Below are positions 14,653-47,082 of a stretch of DNA of 59,568 nucleotides, one piece after another (position 1 is the stretch's first letter; each line of letters opens with the position of its first letter). The notes under the pieces were generated by a model. The model was given only the letters and a program-made list of their open reading frames with translations. It did not search any database and had not been told where the DNA came from. The position numbers and the translations under genes were made by a program. This stretch comes from Candidatus Buchananbacteria bacterium RIFCSPHIGHO2_01_FULL_44_11 (lineage in GTDB: Bacteria; Patescibacteriota; Patescibacteriia; Buchananbacterales; UBA6539), in the NCBI GenBank assembly GCA_001817345.1, contig MHIE01000006.1, forward strand, positions 1-59,568, in the 5' to 3' direction.

Positions 14653-15274
14653 GCCTGAGCTCTTGTAAGAAATTGGTTAAGAACTTTGTCCTTCTTTTTG
14701 CTAATTCTCTCGCTTTTTTTGTATACATCATACCCTCAACTTTTAAGAGTCTAGTGTAAAATAAGTCTAACGCGTAGTTTTTGGGTGTTGGTTTTCTATT
14801 TTCACAAAACGGGTCATCTGGATTATAGAAAGGCCTCTTCATCTGTCCTGTAGAAGAAAAAGTTCTCATAATTGATATTGCCCCTGTCGCTTCTAATCGG
14901 TCTGCATCCTGCAATATTTTTGCTTCAATCAGGTTCGGGACAATGCTTTTAGAAAAAGAGCATTGTCTAATCGCCGTTTGAACTTTATCTATTTTATGTT
15001 TTGGATATTCTTTTATACTCATTAACAACCTTTGTGTATACTTCGCGCTTTTATCAGATTCATTCCTGCCACGCGGGTCATTTTTGGGATAGATAACAAC
15101 ATCATGAAATAGTGCGGCCGGAATAATAATGTCAAAATCTGCACCTTCGTCCTTAGCAATTTTTTCTGCAAGATCCAAGACTCTTACAGAATGTTGAAAA
15201 TCATGAGAGATGTCTTTAGTTGTTATTTTTTTCTTTGCTAGACGTATAAGCTTTTTTCGTAAGCCTTTTGTCAT
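14633..15274 (-). CDS. HD-domain phosphohydrolase
   Basis: HDFQHSVRV .. ALFHDV .. DADRLE. Confidence 0.7.
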   Translation of the reverse strand: MTKGLRKKLIRLAKKKITTKDISHDFQHSVRVLDLAEKIAKDEGADFDIIIPAALFHDVVIYPKNDPRGRNESDKSAKYTQRLLMSIKEYPKHKIDKVQTAIRQCSFSKSIVPNLIEAKILQDADRLEATGAISIMRTFSSTGQMKRPFYNPDDPFCENRKPTPKNYALDLFYTRLLKVEGMMYTKKARELAKRRTKFLTNFLQELRLELDGK

Positions 15275-15308
15275 ATTCTTAAAATAGGCATGTAACTACA
15301 AATAATTT

Positions 15309-15896
15309 TGGTGGACCGTGAGAGAGTTGCTCCGATCCCGACTTTACGTCGTGGATCGAGGATCCCGCCTTCTTTAATAAAAATAATTTGGTGGCGGGAA
15401 ACTCTCGACCTCCTGTTTGTCCCGATAAACTTTTGGACCGGAGCGGGGTCCCCGCCAGAGGCGGGTGCGCCTCTGGCGCAGAACCGTGCGGCCTCCACAT
15501 TGTCCCGACAAACTTTTGGACCGGAGCGGGGTCGAACCGCTTACCTCCACATTGCAAATGTGGCGTTCTACCAGGTGAACTACCGGCCCAAAAGTTTGTC
15601 GAGGATTCTCGACTACTTTTATTTGAAAAATTTGTAAGTCGGAACAAATGTGGTGCTCTAGCCAACTGAGCTACAGGCCCATTCTGAATTTTCGAGGATT
15701 CTCAACTACTTTAATTTATAAAAAACAGTAAGTCGGAACAAATGTGATGCTCTACCAGCTGAGCTACGGGCCCACCAAAGATATCGAGGATCCCGGTTTT
15801 TTAAAGTTTACAAATTAATGAGCCGGACAAATGTGGTATTCTAGCCTACTGCCTGCCCGCCGAAGCTCGGAGAGCGTAGGCGGGAGCTAACGGCCC
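15309..15896 (-). other. Concentric tRNA-Ala locus: three extra 5' exon-like pieces (15645-15680, 15739-15773, 15828-15896) and two extra 3' pieces (15434-15502, 15309-15419) around one intact tRNA-Ala
   Basis: See findings. All 5' pieces end ..C(A/C)CACATTTG and both 3' pieces start CAA. The outermost pair has a matching acceptor stem, GGGCCGT/ACGGTCC-A-CCA. Confidence 0.6.
15517..15589 (-). tRNA. tRNA-Ala(UGC), intact core copy
   Basis: GGGCCGGTAGTTCACCTGGTAGAACGCCACATTTGCAATGTGGAGGTAAGCGGTTCGACCCCGCTCCGGTCCA. It has the G3:U70 pair and anticodon loop TTTGCAA. CCA is not encoded. Confidence 0.85.
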
Positions 15897-15930
15897 AGGC
15901 TTTACAAACGCTTAACTTTAGTGGTTACTT

Positions 15931-16182
15931 TTAAATACCTGGGATGAGGATTTTGGCGATCATGTCCAGCACTGACTGAATCAAATTAGTCATAATCAGA
16001 AAGCCGAGAATACTGGCGAGAATGCCGATCAGTTTATAAGCCAACCGCGATCCACCTTCAGTCCCCAAGTATTTATCGGCCGAGGGGATGGCACCGAAAT
16101 TTTCATAAAACCATTCAGATTTGATGGTGACTAAGGCTCCGACAGCGGCAATGATCAAACCGAGAATAATTCGACCAAGCAT
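15931..16182 (-). CDS. Small membrane protein (2 TM), unknown function
   Basis: 83-aa ORF, hydrophobic at both ends. Confidence 0.4.
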   Translation of the reverse strand: MLGRIILGLIIAAVGALVTIKSEWFYENFGAIPSADKYLGTEGGSRLAYKLIGILASILGFLIMTNLIQSVLDMIAKILIPGI

Positions 16183-16255
16183 AGTGTTATAATTTTAAAT
16201 AACCAATTTTAAATTTTAAGTACTGGATATTTATTTATAATTTAATATTAACCGA

Positions 16256-16525
16256 TGGTGGGCAGCATAGGAATCCCCGCCAAAGGCGGGTGCGCCTTTT
16301 GAGCCAGAGGCTCATCTGCCTTTGGTATGAGGCGCAGAACCTATGACCTCTTCGGTGTAAATGAAGCGCTCCCCGCCCGTTTCGCCTTACCTGATTTATC
16401 AATGGGTTTGAGAGGAGTCGAACCTCTGACCTTCTCGGTGTAAACGAGACGCTCTAACCAACTGAGCTACAAACCCATAATACGGCGAAGCAAGGCGGGC
16501 GGGTAACCAGCTGAGCTAGCTGTCC
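16256..16525 (-). tRNA. Outer tRNA-Val(UAC)-like gene interrupted in the D-loop (insert 16371-16502, contains the inner tRNA-Val) and in the T-loop (insert 16276-16336)
   Basis: With the inserts removed it reads GGACAGC TA GCTC AGCTGGTTAC GAGC G CTTCA TTTACAC CGAAG AGGTC ATAGG TTCGATT CCTAT GCTGCCC A CCA. All four stems form, with A3.C70 and A31.C39 mismatches. Confidence 0.5.
16403..16476 (-). tRNA. tRNA-Val(UAC), intact inner copy
   Basis: GGGTTTGTAGCTCAGTTGGTTAGAGCGTCTCGTTTACACCGAGAAGGTCAGAGGTTCGACTCCTCTCAAACCCA. Confidence 0.9.
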
Positions 16526-16526
16526 T

Positions 16527-16610
16527 TGGTGCGGACGGAGGGACTCGCCCCGTCGAATGACGGGGCGCCCGATTGGATAATCGGGCGAACTCCTTTCTTA
16601 GTATAATTAC
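16527..16610 (-). pseudogene. tRNA-Leu-like 3'-end copy with hairpin insert
   Basis: TGGTGCGGACG is identical to the 3' end of the adjacent tRNA-Leu. It is followed by hairpins TCGCCCCGTCGAATGACGGGGCG and CCCGATTGGATAATCGGG, then GAACTCC. Confidence 0.5.
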
Positions 16611-18810: not shown

Positions 18811-20313
18811 CTAGTTATCGCCCGAGTTAGTTTTTTTCAAGATTTTTTTGACTAAATTTAGCCCCTGCGGCTTGGTTTTGATTTTGTCAGTCAATTGGGC
18901 TTCGCGTAATATTGACAGGAGCCGGCCGATTAAGGGGCTGGATTTGAGCTTAAATGCTTTGATTAAGTCGTGGCCGTCAAGAATCGGTTGGGGCAGAATC
19001 TTTTTATTTTTGCTTTTACCTTTTAATTTGTTGATTCGGGTCTGAAGGTTTTTATAACTGCCAAAGTCCGGTTTGCCCGAAGGCGGAATAGTCGCGGCAA
19101 TATCGGCAAAAATTAGCATCATCAATTCCCGGCCGGGGAAATTGTCGTTGAAAAAATATCTTTCAATGGTTGTTTCTTTCATCATATTGGCCCGTTCATG
19201 GGTCGGCAGCATGTGTTTGGCAATGATTTTTTCTATAACCTCAATGTCTAAACCGGTTGAGGCCAGCCTTAGCCGTTCCGCCACTTTTTTGAATAATTTG
19301 GCTGAAGCGATGTCGTGGCCGTTAAAACGCAGCCGGTCGGCTTTGACCAAAGTTTCTGGTTTGCCCGAGTCATGAAAAATCAAACCCCAAATCACTTCAT
19401 CAGTCAACGGGACGAGGCTAAATTCTTTTTTAAACTCTTTTGATTCAAGTTTTTCTAAAGCGAGCAGGGTATGGGTCCAAACATCGCCCTCAGTGTGCCA
19501 TTTTTTGGGTTGAGGGCAAGTTTTTGTCGGCAACAGCTCAGGCATCAGAATTTTCAAAGCCCCGCTTTGGTCAAGCAGGGTCAAAGCTTTTTTGGGATTG
19601 GGCCGCACCATCTTAACCAGTTCTTTAGCCATGACTTCATAAGGCACAATTTGTTCAGCCTGATTTTTTTTTGTCAAATTTTTAATGCTTTTCTTTATCT
19701 CCCGCCAAGTTTTTGCGTCAAGCGAAAAATCAAGCTGGCAACTGAATCGGATTGCCCGCAGCATCCGGGAATAATCTTCGGCAAAACGTTTTTTTGGTTC
19801 GCCAACGCAACGGATAATCTTTTTTTTGAGATCGGCCTGACCGGCAAACGGATCGAGCAACCGGGAATTTTTTACGTCCCAGGCCATGGCGTTAATGGTA
19901 AAATCACGCCGGCTCAAGTCGTCTTCAATTTTTATTTTTGGACTGCTGTTGATTTTAAAATCGCGGTAAGCGCCGGATAAATGCAGTGAGTGCTCGGTCC
20001 GGGGCAAGGCAATGTCAATTTCTTCAGCCGTTTGGGTTTTTCTATTTCCATTTGCCGGTTTTGGCTTGAATTTAAAAACGCCAAATTTTTTGCCGACCAA
20101 ATTTACTTTGCCCTGACGGGCCAGGAATTTTTCCAACTCCGCTTTGCCCACGCCGCGGATGACAAAGTCAAAATCATTAGTCTCACGGTTAAGGAGAATA
20201 TCGCGGACCGCCCCGCCGACTAAAAAGATTTCCGCCTTGGGAAACCGTTTTACCAACTGCTTAATAAAGGGCTTGGCCTGCCAGCCGTTTAGTTTTTTTT
20301 GCTCATTAATCAT
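18811..20313 (-). CDS. cca: CCA-adding tRNA nucleotidyltransferase / poly(A) polymerase family with HD domain
   Basis: LVGGAVRDILLNRETNDFDF, RRDFTINAMA, C-terminal HD region. Confidence 0.8.
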   Translation of the reverse strand: MINEQKKLNGWQAKPFIKQLVKRFPKAEIFLVGGAVRDILLNRETNDFDFVIRGVGKAELEKFLARQGKVNLVGKKFGVFKFKPKPANGNRKTQTAEEIDIALPRTEHSLHLSGAYRDFKINSSPKIKIEDDLSRRDFTINAMAWDVKNSRLLDPFAGQADLKKKIIRCVGEPKKRFAEDYSRMLRAIRFSCQLDFSLDAKTWREIKKSIKNLTKKNQAEQIVPYEVMAKELVKMVRPNPKKALTLLDQSGALKILMPELLPTKTCPQPKKWHTEGDVWTHTLLALEKLESKEFKKEFSLVPLTDEVIWGLIFHDSGKPETLVKADRLRFNGHDIASAKLFKKVAERLRLASTGLDIEVIEKIIAKHMLPTHERANMMKETTIERYFFNDNFPGRELMMLIFADIAATIPPSGKPDFGSYKNLQTRINKLKGKSKNKKILPQPILDGHDLIKAFKLKSSPLIGRLLSILREAQLTDKIKTKPQGLNLVKKILKKTNSGDN

Positions 20314-23496: not shown

Positions 23497-23593
23497 TGGT
23501 GGGCGCACGTGGATTTGTCCCGATCCCGACTTTACGTCGTGGATCGAGGATCCCGCCTTCTTTTTAAAAATAGTAGTGGCGGGAAACCATTGG
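23497..23593 (-). pseudogene. tRNA 3'-end copy (..AAATCCACGTGCGCCCACCA) with a 67-nt T-loop insert (23518-23584)
   Basis: The insert is nearly identical to 15330-15399. No matching 5' half was found. Confidence 0.5.
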
Positions 23594-23798: not shown

Positions 23799-23968
23799 TG
23801 GTGGGCATGCCCGGATTCGTCCCGATTTTGTCCAAATCTTTGATTTGGTCACAAAATCGAGGATCTCACCGCCGTCGGCGGGACCCCGCCCATGGCGGTG
23901 GCCGCCTTTATTGAAAATAATTAATGTGGCGGGAAACTAGGAGCCACCGCCTTGTCTCAAGCATTTAA
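23799..23968 (-). pseudogene. tRNA 3'-end copy (..GAATCCGGGCATGCCCACCA) with a 115-nt T-loop insert (23820-23934), leading into the helix that carries tRNA-Ile
   Basis: Same module order as 15330-15399 and 23518-23584: GTCCCGA..TCGAGGA, then CCCGCC..GGCGGG. Confidence 0.45.
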
Positions 23969-24040
23969 TGCGCGCACCTGGATTCGAACCAAGAACCACC
24001 GCCTTATAAGGGCGGTGCTCTACCATTGAGCTATGCGCGC
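23969..24040 (-). tRNA. tRNA-Ile(UAU)
   Basis: GCGCGCATAGCTCAATGGTAGAGCACCGCCCTTATAAGGCGGTGGTTCTTGGTTCGAATCCAGGTGCGCGCA. Anticodon loop is CTTATAA. It is flanked by a perfect 14-bp inverted repeat. Confidence 0.75.
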
Positions 24041-24185
24041 ATTAAATGCTTGAGGAACTAATGGTTGCCTTTATATTATATGGATTAATTGGAGCTAAGT
24101 AAATCTATCCATGGAATCGCGTCGCTCGGCTCAAATGGACATTTACGCCCATTTGACTCCTCGCTAGCAATTATAACCACCTAAG

Positions 24186-25322: not shown

Positions 25323-25715
25323 AGTTTCAGTAAATTCGAAGCACCAAATCCTAAATTCGAAACAATATCAAAATTCAAATGCCCAATGTTTTAAACGCTT
25401 TGAATTTGTCCCGACTTCGTCGAGGATCCTCGATTACATCGGGATTTAGGATTTAGACTCGCCTCGCCGGAGCTACGGCGAAGCCGGGGTTGGGATTTCG
25501 GATTTAGAAATTATTTAATTATACCTTTTTTTGGGGAATCTGTCATTGTAATCATTTGCCCAGAATGTGTCAAGGGTAGGCCAGTTTGACCCTAAAAATT
25601 TGCAAAAAACCTGGAAATTAGCTAAAATAAAAGTATCAAAGCGGATTTATCCAGTTTTGGCTGGGGTTTAAAATCGCCTATTTTAAATGTATAATCAAAG
25701 GGTTAATCAGTAAAC

Positions 25716-38118: not shown

Positions 38119-38278
38119 ATATTATTTATTTTTATAATAAAAACCTCCCATTGCTGGGAGATTTTTTATCCTCGGATTTCGAGCAATATAACTCAGAGGC
38201 CAAGGTGGCAGATGGGGCAGGCGAGCCCACGACCGCCCCGACATTTTTAGCTTTTCGCTGAGTCTAAAACAACAAAGG

Positions 38279-38350
38279 GGTGACCAGAGGGAATTGAACC
38301 CTCGTCAAGGGTGCCACAAACCCTTGTGTTACCACTACACCATGGTCACC
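38279..38350 (-). tRNA. tRNA-His(GUG) with encoded G-1
   Basis: G-GTGACCA..anticodon loop TTGTGGC..TGGTCAC-C. It is flanked by the 12-bp inverted repeat ACAACAAAGGGG/CCCCTTTGTTGT. Confidence 0.85.
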
Positions 38351-38469
38351 CCTTTGTTGTCTAGATGAAAAAAGCCGATACGTTTTATTTTAAATTATAA
38401 ATTTTAAATAAAATCTCAATATTATAATATTTAATTAAAATTTAAAATTAATTATTGAAAATTGTTTTC

Positions 38470-38554
38470 TGGTGCACCCGACAGGATTTCCCGCCCGAGA
38501 CGGGTCCGCCTTCTTGTTTTCTTATTAAGGTGGGCGGAGAACCTTAGCCGGTAG
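38470..38554 (-). pseudogene. Copy of the tRNA-Arg(CCG) T-loop-to-CCA end with a 49-nt T-loop insert (38490-38538)
   Basis: TGGTGCACCCGACAGGATTT is identical to 38555-38574. The insert holds TCCGCC..GGCGGA and CCCG..CGGG hairpins and ends before GAACC. Confidence 0.6.
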
Positions 38555-38668: not shown

Positions 38669-38737
38669 TTGCTCCCAGCAGGAATCTCCGCCAGAGGCGG
38701 ATCCGCCCCTTTAGAATTTATAGGATGGCGGAGAACC
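38669..38737 (-). pseudogene. Orphan tRNA 3'-end fragment (..GATTCCTGCTGGGAGCA) with a 46-nt T-loop insert
   Basis: Hairpins TCCGCCAGAGGCGGA and TCCGCCCC..GGCGGA lie between GAATC and GAACC. There is no 5' half. Confidence 0.45.
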
Positions 38738-38802
38738 GTGATAGGCGAGTAGTGTGTCCAATTCCGCCAAAAAGTGGAATAATCTTTTTCTGTTATAACC
38801 AT

Positions 38803-46800: not shown

Positions 46801-47082
46801 ATGAAAAATTATTATATCTATATTATTACTAATCAAAGAAACAACGTTTTATATACCGGTGTTACCAATGACCTAAATAGGAGGATATATGAACATAAAA
46901 ATAAATTAATACCGGGTTTCAGCCATAAGTACAATTTAAACAAATTGGTTTATTATGAGGAATCTAATGGTATCTACAATGCAATCATTAGAGAAAAGCA
47001 GATTAAGAATTGGCACAGGGAATGGAAGGTTAATCTGATTACGAGCGTTAACCCTCGCTGGGAGGATTTATACATCTTATAG
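46801..47082 (+). CDS. GIY-YIG nuclease superfamily protein (UPF0213-like)
   Basis: YYIYIITNQRNNVLYTGVTNDLNRRIYEHK. Confidence 0.8.
   Translation: MKNYYIYIITNQRNNVLYTGVTNDLNRRIYEHKNKLIPGFSHKYNLNKLVYYEESNGIYNAIIREKQIKNWHREWKVNLITSVNPRWEDLYIL

What the first reader, a model, noticed from the sequence alone, without database searches (positions are those of the whole stretch)
15309..15896. Russian-doll tRNA-Ala locus: concentric half-genes around one intact tRNA-Ala, with junctions that rebuild the UGC anticodon loop
On the minus strand, three tRNA-Ala-like 5' pieces (15828-15896, 15739-15773, 15645-15680) each run from G1 (GGGCC.., G3 present) through the D arm to ..CACA-TTTG. An intact tRNA-Ala(UGC) follows at 15517-15589. 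Two 3' pieces then follow (15434-15502 and 15309-15419), each beginning CAA.

Joining any 5' piece to the 15434-15502 3' piece gives CCACA-TTTG|CAA-TGTGG, which is exactly the tRNA-Ala anticodon arm. The break therefore lies between anticodon positions 35 and 36.

The intervening sequence starts TTCCGAC (or TCCGGCT) and ends GTCGGGA. These can pair with a U.G wobble and close the insert directly at the junctions. The core tRNA sits on an 11-bp helix, CGACAAACTTT/AAAGTTTGTCG.

The outermost 5' and 3' pieces have perfectly matching acceptor arms (GGGCCGT/ACGGTCC-A-CCA) and a 5-bp T stem. However, their anticodon stem is mismatched (CCACA vs ACAGG). There is also one more 5' piece than 3' pieces, so at least some shells are decayed or one 3' piece was deleted.

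My working hypothesis is a cassette that carries a tRNA-Ala and inserts into the anticodon of tRNA-Ala genes. It would replace what it destroys and recreate its own target. This is inference only.
Basis: partly seen in the sequence, partly recalled or inferred. Interest (0 to 1): 0.9.

Follow-up and report, generated by a model that had tools for sequence, protein, structure and literature searches.

The report
Self-replacing tRNA-Ala mobile cassette, nested
A small hairpin-ended mobile DNA element that carries its own alanine tRNA gene has repeatedly inserted into the anticodon loop of the alanine tRNA gene of a candidate-phyla-radiation bacterium. Each round left dead half-genes around one live copy, and relatives show that complete copies of the element also encode a tiny GIY-YIG nuclease.

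Summary
On the minus strand lie three tRNA-Ala 5' halves, one intact tRNA-Ala(UGC) and two 3' halves. All are broken between anticodon positions 35 and 36.

The inserts are two tandem hairpins. The first runs T(T)CCGA…TCGAGRA and the second TCCTCGA…TCGGGA. The live tRNA sits in the loop of the second hairpin.

The same element occurs in at least 105 non-redundant copies in Patescibacteria genomes:
- 13 copies carry an 80–91 aa Slx1/UPF0213-like GIY-YIG nuclease gene in hairpin 1.
- 13 copies carry a tRNA in hairpin 2.
- The rest are 48–123 nt and carry nothing.

The insertion site consensus is the palindrome TTG|CAA, with no target duplication. tRNA-Ala(UGC) cannot avoid this site, because U33-U34-G35-C36-A37 reads TTGCA.

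Wherever the joined flanks rebuild a tRNA (8 of 8 cases), the cargo is a tRNA-Ala, -Thr or -Cys in the same orientation, of the matching kind in seven. No cargo-less copy interrupts an intact tRNA (0 of about 92).

Outer shells are decayed, and shell number differs between close relatives.

The insertion chemistry is unresolved, and no RNA data exist.

The parts
15828..15896 (-). Outermost tRNA-Ala 5' half 'A' (G1 to G35). It carries a 40-nt GC-rich hairpin insert in the D loop at 15844-15883.
   Evidence: Sequence read. Direct-repeat family D1. Its acceptor strand GGGCCGT pairs 7/7 with p2.
15774..15827 (-). Element copy E1, 5' part only. Hairpin 1 is 15791-15827 (TCCGGCT..ACCGGGA). The hairpin-2 5' arm is 15774-15790 (TCCTCGATATCTTTGGT). 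It has no clear 3' arm.
   Evidence: The GGATCCTCGA motif was found. It shares 39 of 60 aligned columns with E3.
15739..15773 (-). tRNA-Ala 5' half 'B' (G1 to G35). The D arm is intact. No 3' piece matches it.
   Evidence: D1 copy at 83%.
15681..15738 (-). Element copy E2, 5' part only. Hairpin 1 is 15699-15738. The hairpin-2 5' arm is 15681-15698 (TCCTCGAAAATTCAGAAT). The 3' arm is missing.
   Evidence: 46 of 60 aligned columns identical to E3. It does not fold on its own (z +1.2).
15645..15680 (-). tRNA-Ala 5' half 'C' (G1 to G35). The D arm is intact.
   Evidence: Families D2 and D4.
15590..15644 (-). Innermost element E3, 5' part. Hairpin 1 is 15606-15644 (TTCCGACTTAC..GTAGTCGAGAA). The hairpin-2 5' arm is 15590-15605 (TCCTCGACAAACTTTT).
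   Evidence: As single-stranded DNA, 15503-15644 folds into hairpin 1 plus a hairpin 2 that encloses a cloverleaf (-37.1 kcal/mol, z -7.3).
15517..15589 (-). Intact cargo tRNA-Ala(UGC). It has G3:U70 and no encoded CCA. It is the only complete tRNA-Ala gene found at this locus.
   Evidence: ARAGORN. Rfam RF00005, 62.3 bits.
15503..15516 (-). Hairpin-2 3' arm of E3 (AAAGTTTGTCGGGA). It ends flush at the G35|C36 junction.
   Evidence: Inverted repeat I1, 19 nt, 95% complementary. Fold.
15434..15502 (-). 3' half 'p1' (C36 to A73). It carries a 30-nt GC-rich hairpin insert in the T loop at 15451-15480, placed at TTC|GACC. Its acceptor strand matches the core 5' half.
   Evidence: D3 direct repeat with the core's 3' end. 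Fold of the insert gives z -5.2.
15420..15433 (-). Orphan hairpin-2 3' arm (AAAGTTTATCGGGA), one mismatch from E3's arm.
   Evidence: I2, D3.
15309..15419 (-). Outermost 3' half 'p2' (C36 to CCA). Its anticodon-stem strand is decayed (ACAGG). It carries a 70-nt cargo-less element copy in the T loop at 15330-15399 (GAGAGTT|..|CAACTCTCTC).
   Evidence: The fold of the insert gives two hairpins, z -5.4. Orthologous pieces without the insert are present in L360 and L361.
23518..23584 (-). Sister copy of the p2 T-loop element. It lies in the T loop of a Val-like tRNA 3' fragment that ends at 23497. The two copies align without mismatch from the 3' side of the first hairpin's loop to within 2 nt of the 3' end.
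   Evidence: Fold z -5.4.
25409..25444 (-). Minimal 36-nt solo element (TCCCGATGTAATCGAGGA TCCTCGACGAAGTCGGGA), followed by CAA, in an intergenic region.
   Evidence: Fold.

Best explanation
The locus is the layered scar of repeated insertions of a non-autonomous, tRNA-Ala-carrying member of a Patescibacteria-wide family of mobile DNA elements.

The element (shown):
- It is two tandem hairpin units whose four feet are the same half-site in alternating orientation: TCCCGAT…ATCGAGGA | TCCTCGAT…ATCGGGA.
- In autonomous copies, the loop of hairpin 1 holds an 80-91 aa Slx1/UPF0213-type GIY-YIG nuclease gene.
- The loop of hairpin 2 is empty or holds a complete tRNA gene.
- Insertion occurs at the centre of a TTG|CAA-like palindrome and leaves no target duplication.

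Why tRNA-Ala is hit (shown for the sequence match, inferred for the consequence):
- The anticodon loop of tRNA-Ala(UGC) is necessarily U33-U34-G35-C36-A37 = TTGCA, so it is a target that cannot mutate away.
- An insertion there is survivable only because the element brings a replacement tRNA-Ala.
- The replacement contains the same target. It can be hit again, and each hit adds a shell.

State of this window:
- The interrupted halves are dead and decay. They collect further hairpin inserts in their D and T loops (shown).
- All three nested copies in the window lack the nuclease gene. They must have been moved in trans or by recombination (inferred).
- The unequal number of 5' and 3' pieces, and the duplicated core 3' end, fit one-sided break repair that copies from a neighbouring shell (inferred).

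Not resolved: whether movement is homing by break repair, with co-conversion of flanks, or a hairpin-directed cut or copy and paste by the structure-specific nuclease. The spread of cargo-less copies to many sites that share only the TTG|CAA-like consensus favours a transposition-like step.
For: Anatomy in the window.

Full-length elements with the same 35/36 junction in independent genomes: L090, L164, L165, L167, L168, L169, L171 and L296.

The nuclease:
- The ORF is a GIY-YIG domain (Pfam PF01541, E = 5.5e-20).
- Catalytic residues Y5, Y16, R26, H30 and E62 are invariant in 15 sequences.
- The closest solved structures are UPF0213 proteins (1zg2, 7e-11) and SLX1 (7cq2, 2.4e-8). I-TevI scores only 3.4e-4.

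Family survey:
- The central palindrome gives at least 120 hits in genome contigs, most of them in MAGs named as Patescibacteria or labelled Saccharibacteria. Several genomes have multiple copies.
- 105 non-redundant elements were delimited. 13 carry the ORF, always in hairpin 1. 13 carry a tRNA, always in hairpin 2.
- The target logo at positions -3 to +3 is T59 T48 G75 | C70 A72 A59 of about 104 sites.
- In 8 of 8 cases where the flanks rebuild a tRNA, the cargo is a tRNA in the same orientation. In seven ARAGORN gives both the same isoacceptor. In L164 the decayed joined flanks are typed tRNA-Cys(GCA) around a tRNA-Ala(UGC) cargo.
- None of about 92 cargo-less copies does so.
- Arm sequences differ between copies but stay complementary: 6.4 of 8 pairs against 4.4 when arms are re-dealt among elements.

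Decay of outer shells:
- Window A+p2 anticodon stem pairs 2/5, and ARAGORN rejects every join with p2 as tRNA-Ala.
- L164, L168, L169 and L081 have broken or deleted stems.

Presence and absence at the syntenic locus (L19 - tRNA-Leu - tRNA-Val - small ORF - tRNA-Ala), given as 5' pieces / 3' pieces:
- L084: no shells. L156, where only tRNA-Val - small ORF - tRNA-Ala were seen: no shells.
- L081: 1/1.
- L090: 2/1.
- L360: 0/1 and L361: 2/1.
- Window: 3/2.

Filled versus empty T-loop site: window p2 against L361 and L360.
Against: - No nuclease gene lies inside the window's copies. The only GIY-YIG ORF in the window (46807-47070) is 35% identical to the first element-borne sequence of the alignment, has no hairpin arms and is not next to a tRNA.
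- The shells do not pair up cleanly. B and C have no matching 3' half. p1 matches the core rather than C. E1 and E2 have no 3' arms. A simple history of three nested insertions is therefore not literally preserved.
- The T-loop copies sit at GTT|CAA, not TTG|CAA.
- An 80-91 aa nuclease domain with no DNA-binding domain is not known to mediate either homing or transposition.
- Nuclease activity, target cleavage and mobility are all untested.
- Nothing is known about the RNA products.
- The two compensatory T-stem differences between the window's p2 and L361's 3' piece are unexpected for an old shared relic. They require independent invasions or transfer of flanking sequence.
Confidence: 0.75

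Rival explanations
1. The inserts are true RNA introns of a new bacterial type. The two-hairpin module is cut out of the precursor, the nested tRNA is released by RNase P and RNase Z, and the outer halves are ligated. One transcript would then yield several tRNA-Ala molecules.
For: The inserts sit exactly in tRNA loops: anticodon 35/36, D loop, and T loop 55/56 or 56/57. Removing them restores canonical loop sequences such as TTCAACT and TTCGACC. All pieces are on one strand. The arms covary, as expected for a structured RNA. L171's outer halves are still almost intact.
Against: - Outer halves are broken in most loci. Window A+p2 has an anticodon stem of 2/5. L169 lacks 5 nt of that stem. L168 and L081 have unrecognisable 3' halves. 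In L090 the T arm is replaced by a plain hairpin.
- B and C have no partner.
- None of about 92 cargo-less copies interrupts an otherwise intact tRNA, and copies examined by eye (L175, L163) lie between genes.
- There is no bulge-helix-bulge motif (read).
- No Rfam intron or ribozyme family matches the region.
Confidence: 0.07
2. The relics come from local duplication, slippage and recombination between tRNA-Ala copies in a hairpin-rich region. No dedicated mobile element is involved. The hairpins are processing stems of the tRNA.
For: The D3 direct repeat (core 3' end plus arm, 89%) looks like a local duplication. Other intact tRNAs in the window also sit in flanking helices: Ile at 23956-24054 and His. 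Shell pairing is inconsistent.
Against: - The same breakpoint (G35|C36) and the same terminal motifs recur in many independent lineages, together with a nuclease ORF.
- The same module is dispersed across many genomic sites that share only a TTG|CAA-like target.
- Three identical breakpoints in one locus are not expected by chance (0.04 expected).
Confidence: 0.08
3. Serial site-specific integration and decay of integrase-type genomic islands. Such islands use tRNA-Ala as their attachment site and carry a partial tRNA to restore it.
For: tRNA genes are classic attachment sites, and integrated elements leave displaced tRNA fragments (established knowledge). Several intact tRNAs in the window are followed by 3' fragments.
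Against: - The pieces are concentric (5',5',5',full,3',3'), not direct repeats of an attachment core.
- The inserts are 54-58 nt, with no integrase gene in or near them.
- Whole tRNAs are carried, not 3' ends.
- The associated protein in relatives is a GIY-YIG nuclease.
Confidence: 0.03
4. Assembly artefact: a misassembled repeat of a single tRNA-Ala gene.
For: The window appears to be from a metagenome-assembled genome, and repeats are error-prone in such assemblies.
Against: The copies differ at 11-36% of positions, so they cannot be collapsed or expanded reads of one gene. Independent assemblies from other samples show the same nested design with different sequences (L361, L090, L171).
Confidence: 0.02

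Closest known systems
Mobile group I introns with GIY-YIG homing endonucleases (e.g. phage T4 td / I-TevI; bacterial tRNA anticodon-loop group I introns)
   Same: A nuclease gene sits inside an insertion at a conserved, functionally constrained site of an essential gene. The insertion is in the tRNA anticodon loop. Flanking exon sequence appears to travel with the element in some loci (L167, L164 and L162 share the 3' flank CAATGAGGAGG).
   Different: There is no ribozyme core (no Rfam hit). The 5' exon ends in G and the insert ends in A. There is no evidence of splicing. The nuclease is a bare 80-91 aa Slx1-like domain without the DNA-binding module of I-TevI. Function is rescued by a carried gene copy, not by splicing.
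Endonuclease-borne gene-segment replacement in fungal mitochondria (e.g. the GIY-YIG ORF in Allomyces macrogynus atp6, which brings a foreign atp6 3' end and leaves the native end as a downstream pseudogene; own knowledge, not checked in the library)
   Same: A GIY-YIG element inserts into an essential gene, supplies its own working copy of what it displaces and leaves the native fragment as a relic. L089 (tRNA-Val, then GIY-YIG, then the hairpins, then the 3' two-thirds of tRNA-Val) has exactly this layout.
   Different: Here a whole tRNA gene is carried inside a hairpin loop, so the target is recreated and nesting can recur. The element has conserved hairpin ends and miniature derivatives. 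The host is a bacterium.
Archaeal disrupted tRNA genes (bulge-helix-bulge introns at non-canonical positions, split and tri-split tRNAs; Fujishima et al., as summarised in PMC10714607)
   Same: tRNA genes are interrupted in the D, anticodon and T loops. The inserts look transposable between tRNAs. Complementary leader sequences flank the pieces.
   Different: There is no bulge-helix-bulge motif. The host is a bacterium. The outer halves are decayed and unpaired. The same element is also found outside tRNA genes.
Hairpin-ended bacterial elements without target duplication (IS200/IS605 and their miniature PATE derivatives; REPIN/RAYT systems; own knowledge)
   Same: The ends are hairpin-forming. 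There is no target-site duplication. Insertion is next to a short specific sequence. There are many miniature non-autonomous copies and a few protein-coding ones.
   Different: The encoded protein is a GIY-YIG nuclease, not an HUH Y1 transposase. The hairpin feet are flush with the junctions. The target is a palindrome cut at its centre. The element carries tRNA cargo.
Dada DNA transposons of eukaryotes, which insert specifically into multicopy tRNA and snRNA genes (PMC8869645, abstract)
   Same: Transposable elements specialised on small RNA genes.
   Different: According to that abstract, Dada escapes harm by hitting multicopy genes. This element instead carries a replacement tRNA gene. The enzymes and the host domain of life are unrelated.
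Synthetic 'cleave and rescue' / home-and-rescue gene drives (own knowledge)
   Same: The logic is the same: destroy an essential gene and supply a linked rescue copy.
   Different: Engineered rescue copies are recoded to be immune. Here the rescue copy cannot be immune, which produces the nesting.

Membership tests
tRNA (Rfam RF00005), core gene 15517-15589 | Cloverleaf covariance-model score above the gathering threshold; for alanine identity, G3:U70. | tested here: met
   62.3 bits against a threshold of 29. ARAGORN calls tRNA-Ala(UGC). G3 and T70 read directly.
tRNA (functional), outer shells | The joined halves give a tRNA with paired acceptor, anticodon and T stems. | tested here: not met
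   A+p2 has acceptor 7/7 but anticodon stem 2/5. ARAGORN rejects every join with p2 as tRNA-Ala, even with the T-loop insert removed. B and C pair 6/7 with p1 and 5/7 with p2. p1's T stem is 3/5 (and hand count).
Archaeal-type bulge-helix-bulge tRNA intron | Two 3-nt bulges separated by a 4-bp helix at the splice sites. | tested here: not met
   The 5' exon positions -6 to -3 (CATT) against the insert positions -6 to -3 (TCGG) give 1 of 4 pairs. Both junctions are flush with hairpin feet instead (read; fold).
Archaeal-type bulge-helix-bulge tRNA intron | The host encodes an EndA-type splicing endonuclease and a ligase. | not tested
   Only 59.6 kb of the genome is available, and the ORFs were not all scanned.
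Group I intron | Conserved ribozyme core; U at the end of the 5' exon; G at the intron's 3' end. | tested here: not met
   No Rfam intron family matches at E up to 5 in 15200-16000. The exon ends in G35 and the insert ends in A. The window's inserts are 54-58 nt.
Homing-endonuclease element (I-TevI type) | A nuclease with a separate sequence-specific DNA-binding domain that cleaves the uninterrupted allele. | tested here: not met
   The element ORFs are 80-91 aa and consist of the catalytic domain only. The profile matches UPF0213 and SLX1 better than I-TevI. Cleavage could not be tested.
GIY-YIG nuclease superfamily, Slx1/UPF0213 branch (element ORFs in relatives) | GIY and YIG motifs with a conserved Arg and Glu; sequence similarity to UPF0213 and SLX1. 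| tested here: met
   Pfam PF01541, E = 5.5e-20. Y5, Y16, R26, H30 and E62 are invariant. 1zg2 at 7e-11, 1ywl at 3.2e-9, SLX1 7cq2 at 2.4e-8.
IS200/IS605 (and PATE) | An HUH Y1 transposase (TnpA) gene in autonomous copies. | tested here: not met
   The only ORF in 13 autonomous copies is GIY-YIG.
IS200/IS605 (and PATE) | No target duplication, hairpin ends, and insertion beside a short specific sequence. | tested here: met
   The tRNA sequence is continuous across the joined flanks, with no duplicated bases. The target logo is TTG|CAA.
Classical MITE / TIR transposon | Terminal inverted repeats plus a target-site duplication made by a DDE transposase. | tested here: not met
   Inverted termini TCCCGAT/ATCGGGA are present, but there is no duplication and no DDE gene.
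Integrase-type tRNA-targeting island | A tyrosine or serine recombinase gene and direct repeats of an attachment core. | tested here: not met
   The neighbouring ORFs are HD, DsbB, L19, guanylate kinase, RluA-type synthase and CCA-adding enzyme. The pieces are concentric, not direct att repeats.

The most novel reading that the evidence does not exclude
This would be a previously undescribed class of prokaryotic transposable element. Its only protein is a minimal Slx1-like, structure-specific GIY-YIG nuclease. The nuclease would recognise the element's own hairpin or cruciform ends and a TTG|CAA palindrome exposed in tRNA-gene loops. The element would survive insertion into essential single-copy tRNA genes by carrying a replacement tRNA. 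That makes it a natural cleave-and-rescue drive, and its unavoidable self-targeting would write a layered fossil record of successive invasions.
Probability: 0.35. Interest if true: 0.9.

Novelty: new variant of a known kind. Interest (0 to 1): 0.8.

Why it matters
- It explains why tRNA loci of Patescibacteria are littered with half-genes and hairpin-filled tRNA look-alikes. These could otherwise be misread as bacterial tRNA introns or split tRNAs, and they confuse tRNA annotation.
- It points to a mobile role for the bacterial Slx1/UPF0213 mini-nucleases. The 2006 GIY-YIG phylogenomic survey treated them as vertically inherited, with a predicted role in DNA repair (PMC1564403). Here they appear as the sole protein of a very compact element.
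- It is a natural example of a selfish element that destroys an essential gene and carries the rescue copy. It shows what happens when the rescue copy cannot be made immune.
- The nested shells give a relative time series of invasions that can be compared across lineages.

Tried and rejected
- ARAGORN in intron mode on the locus found only the core and spurious low-score calls.
- Synteny search with the downstream HD-domain protein gave relatives in which no tRNA-Ala(UGC) gene was found next to it, so it was not informative. The L19 search worked.
- A bulge-helix-bulge reading of the junctions fails. This was checked by hand.
- A group I or other known RNA family is excluded: there are no Rfam hits.
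- Promoter and terminator scans of 15200-16250 were at background level.
- The window's own GIY-YIG ORF (46807-47070) was checked for flanking arms. None were found, so it cannot be assigned to the element.
- A viral-contig scan for the central palindrome gave 3 hits, roughly what my rough estimate gives for chance, and was not pursued.
- Eight literature searches found no description of this element. That covers only the open-access library held here.
- I tried to assign each 3' piece to a 5' piece by acceptor and arm complementarity. Only A with p2 and core with p1 fit. The A>B arm also partly matches the sequence after p2 (I4), so the exact order of events cannot be reconstructed.
Full report
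**Where the window comes from.** It carries the 3' end of a bacterial 23S rRNA gene, a 5S rRNA gene and eight detectable tRNAs. The closest relatives of its L19 and HD-domain proteins are metagenome-assembled Patescibacteria (Falkowbacteria, Parcubacteria and similar). None is closer than 76% (L19) or 62% (HD protein) identity. A CCA-adding enzyme gene lies at 18811-20313.

**The observation.** Read on the minus strand, the locus is:
- A5, 15896-15828
- E1 5' part, 15827-15774
- B5, 15773-15739
- E2 5' part, 15738-15681
- C5, 15680-15645
- E3 5' part, 15644-15590
- intact tRNA-Ala(UGC), 15589-15517
- arm AAAGTTTGTCGGGA, 15516-15503
- p1, 15502-15434
- arm AAAGTTTATCGGGA, 15433-15420
- p2, 15419-15309

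Every 5' piece ends ..CACATTTG (G35) and every 3' piece starts CAA (C36). The repeat finder recovers the families and the 19-nt inverted arms around the core. The junction strings are far above chance: 3 against 0.04 expected, and 5 against 0.42 expected. Only the core scores as a tRNA in Rfam, and no intron or ribozyme family matches the region.

A and p2 have fully complementary acceptor strands but an anticodon stem of only 2/5. p1's acceptor strand fits the core rather than C. B and C have no partner (hand count).

- a 40-nt hairpin in A's D loop
- a 30-nt GC-rich hairpin in p1's T loop
- a 70-nt two-hairpin element in p2's T loop

**Anatomy of the insert.** Each insert is two hairpin units in tandem.
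- Hairpin 1 runs T(T)CCGAC…GTCGAGAA and has a short AT-rich loop.
- Hairpin 2 runs TCCTCGAC-AAACTTT-[tRNA]-AAAGTTT-GTCGGGA, so the live tRNA sits in its loop and its stem continues the acceptor stem.
- As single-stranded DNA the complete innermost unit folds exactly this way (-37.1 kcal/mol, z = -7.3).
- The four feet are one half-site in alternating orientation. The middle of the element is therefore a palindrome (TCGAGRA|TCCTCGA), and the two ends are inverted repeats.

The window holds more copies of this module:
- the T loop of p2
- the T loop of a Val-like 3' fragment at 23518-23584, which matches the p2 copy without mismatch from the 3' side of the first hairpin's loop to within 2 nt of the 3' end
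- the 3' half that follows tRNA-Ile(UAU)
- a 36-nt solo copy at 25409-25444

**Relatives.** The gene order L19 - tRNA-Leu - tRNA-Val - small ORF - tRNA-Ala is conserved, and the tRNA-Ala site varies.
- L084 has a plain tRNA-Ala with no shell. So does L156, where only tRNA-Val, the small ORF and tRNA-Ala were seen.
- L081 has one decayed shell with the same helix and the same GTCGGGA|CAA junction.
- L082 keeps only the junction relic.
- L360 (about 80-90% nucleotide identity to the window over the aligned segments) has no 5' piece and one 3' piece.
- L361 has a truncated 5' piece, a full 5' piece and one 3' piece.
- L090 has two 5' pieces and one 3' piece.

Shell number therefore differs between lineages. 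In L090, hairpin 1 is 286 nt long and encodes an intact 84-aa GIY-YIG protein.

A search with that protein returned 79 loci. In most of them this small protein lies directly beside a same-strand tRNA gene, usually just upstream of it. In Patescibacteria the neighbour is tRNA-Ala, Glu, Gln, Thr or Arg. In Bacteroidota it sits inside tRNA-Pro or tRNA-Val arrays.

Six further Patescibacteria loci show the full design at the same 35/36 position: outer 5' half ..TTTG | TCCCGAT-ATG…ORF…stop-ATCGAGGA TCCTCGAT-[tRNA-Ala(UGC)]-ATCGGGA | CAA.. outer 3' half. In L171 the outer halves are still nearly intact. In L164, L168 and L169 they are broken or partly deleted. In L168 and L169 the outer 5' half also carries a cargo-less copy in its D loop.

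**Family survey.** Most were in MAGs named as Patescibacteria or labelled Saccharibacteria, often with several hits per genome. A script delimited 105 non-redundant elements with ends TCCCGAT…ATCGGGA.
- 13 have an ORF of 60 aa or more. All but one truncated 65-aa copy are 80-91 aa GIY-YIG ORFs. The ORF is always in hairpin 1.
- 13 carry a tRNA, always in hairpin 2: Ala-UGC, Ala-CGC, Thr-CGU, Thr-GGU, Ser-GGA or Cys-GCA.
- The rest are 48-123 nt with no cargo. Copies examined by eye lie between genes (L175, L163) or in the D and T loops of dead tRNA pieces.
- The flanks give a clear target: T T G | C A A (59, 48, 75 | 70, 72, 59 of about 104), a palindrome cut at its centre with no duplicated bases.
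- In all 8 cases where the joined flanks rebuild a tRNA, the element carries a tRNA in the same orientation. In seven ARAGORN gives both the same isoacceptor. In L164 the decayed joined flanks are typed tRNA-Cys(GCA) around a tRNA-Ala(UGC) cargo.
- None of about 92 cargo-less copies interrupts an otherwise intact tRNA.
- Arm sequences differ from copy to copy but remain complementary within a copy.

**The protein.** Y5, Y16, R26, H30 and E62 are invariant. Its nearest solved relatives are the bacterial UPF0213 proteins and the structure-specific endonuclease SLX1. I-TevI is much more distant. It has no DNA-binding domain. The 2006 phylogenomic survey of GIY-YIG nucleases describes these minimal prokaryotic Slx1-like proteins as largely vertically inherited, with a predicted role in DNA repair (PMC1564403).

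**Interpretation.** tRNA-Ala(UGC) must read U33-U34-G35-C36-A37, that is TTGCA. Its anticodon loop is therefore a built-in match to the element's target.

An insertion there kills the gene, so only copies that bring a tRNA-Ala are seen there. The new tRNA-Ala has the same target, so it can be hit again. Repeated hits give the concentric half-genes.

The interrupted halves are free to decay and to accept more hairpin inserts. That is what the window's A, p1 and p2 show. The orthologous 3' pieces in L360 and L361 still have uninterrupted T loops: GAGAGTTCGAATCTCTC and GTGGGTTCAACTCCCAC, against the window's GAGAGTT|70 nt|CAACTCTCTC.

The window's three nested copies lack the ORF, and E2 and E3 share the same short hairpin-1 loop (46 of 60 columns identical). 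An ORF-less, tRNA-carrying derivative therefore spread here.

The unequal piece count and the duplicated core 3' end (D3) can be explained by repair of a break in the live tRNA that copies from a neighbouring shell on one side only. This step is inference.

In L162, L164 and L167 the outer 3' half begins with the same CAATGAGGAGG, whatever the outer 5' half needs for pairing. That suggests flanking sequence travels with the element, as in homing. The dispersal of cargo-less copies to many sites that share only the TTG|CAA-like consensus instead points to a transposition-like step. I could not decide between these two.

**Rivals.**
- Spliced introns are unlikely. The reasons are the decayed and unpaired outer halves, the absence of cargo-less copies in live tRNAs, the absence of a bulge-helix-bulge motif and the absence of any known ribozyme.
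- Integrase-type islands do not fit the concentric order or the gene content.
- Plain local duplication does not explain the same breakpoint and termini in many lineages.
- An assembly artefact is excluded by the divergence of the copies and by independent assemblies.

**What remains unknown.**
- Which RNAs are made.
- Whether the nuclease cuts TTGCAA or a DNA structure.
- How the tRNA cargo was first captured.
- What moved the ORF-less copies in this genome. The only GIY-YIG ORF in the window, at 46807-47070, is a distant relative without hairpin arms.

**Novelty.** The ingredients are known: a selfish nuclease element in an essential gene, and replacement of the displaced gene part. This combination I did not find in the searchable literature:
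- hairpin-bounded ends
- a minimal Slx1-like nuclease
- a palindromic target without duplication
- a whole-tRNA rescue cargo
- the resulting nesting

Noticed in passing
window 16256-16525 (-): A second nested locus. The intact tRNA-Val(UAC) at 16402-16477 has no encoded CCA. It sits in the D loop of an outer tRNA-Val(UAC) that does have CCA. The intact gene is flanked by a long imperfect helix (CCCGCCCG../..CGGGCGGGG). The outer gene has an A3·C70 mismatch and an A31·C39 mismatch, plus a 61-nt GC-rich double hairpin in its T loop at TTC|GATT.
   Followed up: partly
window 16527-16596 (-), 38470-38545 (-), 38670-38740 (-): The intact tRNA-Leu(GAG) and tRNA-Arg(CCG) are each followed within about 10-15 nt by a 3' fragment of the same tRNA. 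The T loop of each fragment is split at TTC|GA by a GC-rich two-hairpin insert, for example TCCGCC..GGCGGA TCCGCCTCTGGCGGA. A third such fragment, of unknown identity, lies upstream of tRNA-Arg(CCG). This looks like a sister family of hairpin elements that targets the T-loop palindrome TTCGAA.
   Followed up: partly
window 23799-24054 (-): tRNA-Ile(UAU) has no encoded CCA and sits between 14-nt complementary arms (CTCAAGCATTTAAT / ATTAAATGCTTGAG). It is followed by a tRNA 3' half that starts CAAGGCGG and ends CATGCCCACCA. That half has a 115-nt element copy in its T loop. No matching 5' half was found upstream.
   Followed up: partly
window 38264-38365 (-): tRNA-His has no encoded CCA and is also flanked by a helix of 9 nt or more (GACAACAAAG / CTTTGTTGT). 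In this window the CCA-less tRNAs tend to sit in flanking helices, and the CCA-encoding tRNAs tend not to.
   Followed up: no
window 46807-47070 (+): A free-standing 88-aa GIY-YIG ORF, 35% identical to the first element-borne sequence of the alignment. It has no hairpin arms and no adjacent tRNA. It is a possible trans-acting nuclease for the ORF-less copies, but there is no evidence for that.
   Followed up: partly
L089 1195-1650: tRNA-Val(GAC), then a GIY-YIG ORF, then two hairpins (TCCCGA..ATCGGGA TTCCGAT..ATCGGAA), then the 3' two-thirds of tRNA-Val(GAC) with two substitutions. This variant replaces only part of the target gene.
   Followed up: partly
L177 1400-1815; L083 4420-4600; L104 4020-4340: Other layouts of tRNA relics in Patescibacteria. 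L177 has a 5' fragment of tRNA-Glu, then a GIY-YIG ORF, then an intact tRNA-Glu. L083 has a tRNA-Ala 5' fragment plus a duplicated 16-nt upstream flank before the live gene. L104 has an outer tRNA-Ala interrupted before the anticodon loop, not at 35/36.
   Followed up: no
L179-L235 (e.g. L230 1387-1900): In Bacteroidota (Chitinophagaceae, Pedobacter, Ferruginibacter) homologous 77-83 aa GIY-YIG ORFs sit inside tandem arrays of identical tRNA-Pro or tRNA-Val genes. The ORF typically ends at or overlaps the start of the next tRNA. L230 also shows a TCCCGAT..ATCGGGA hairpin inside a tRNA fragment. The link between this nuclease and tRNA genes extends beyond Patescibacteria.
   Followed up: partly
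window 15302-15317 vs 15769-15784: The hairpin-2 5' arm of the outermost insert (..ATATCTTTGGTGGGCC) is 81% complementary to the end of p2 plus its trailer (GGTCCACCAAAATTAT). The trailer ACCAAAATTAT is shared with L360 and resembles the hairpin-2 3' arm of L164. The 'outermost' gene may itself once have been a cargo.
   Followed up: no
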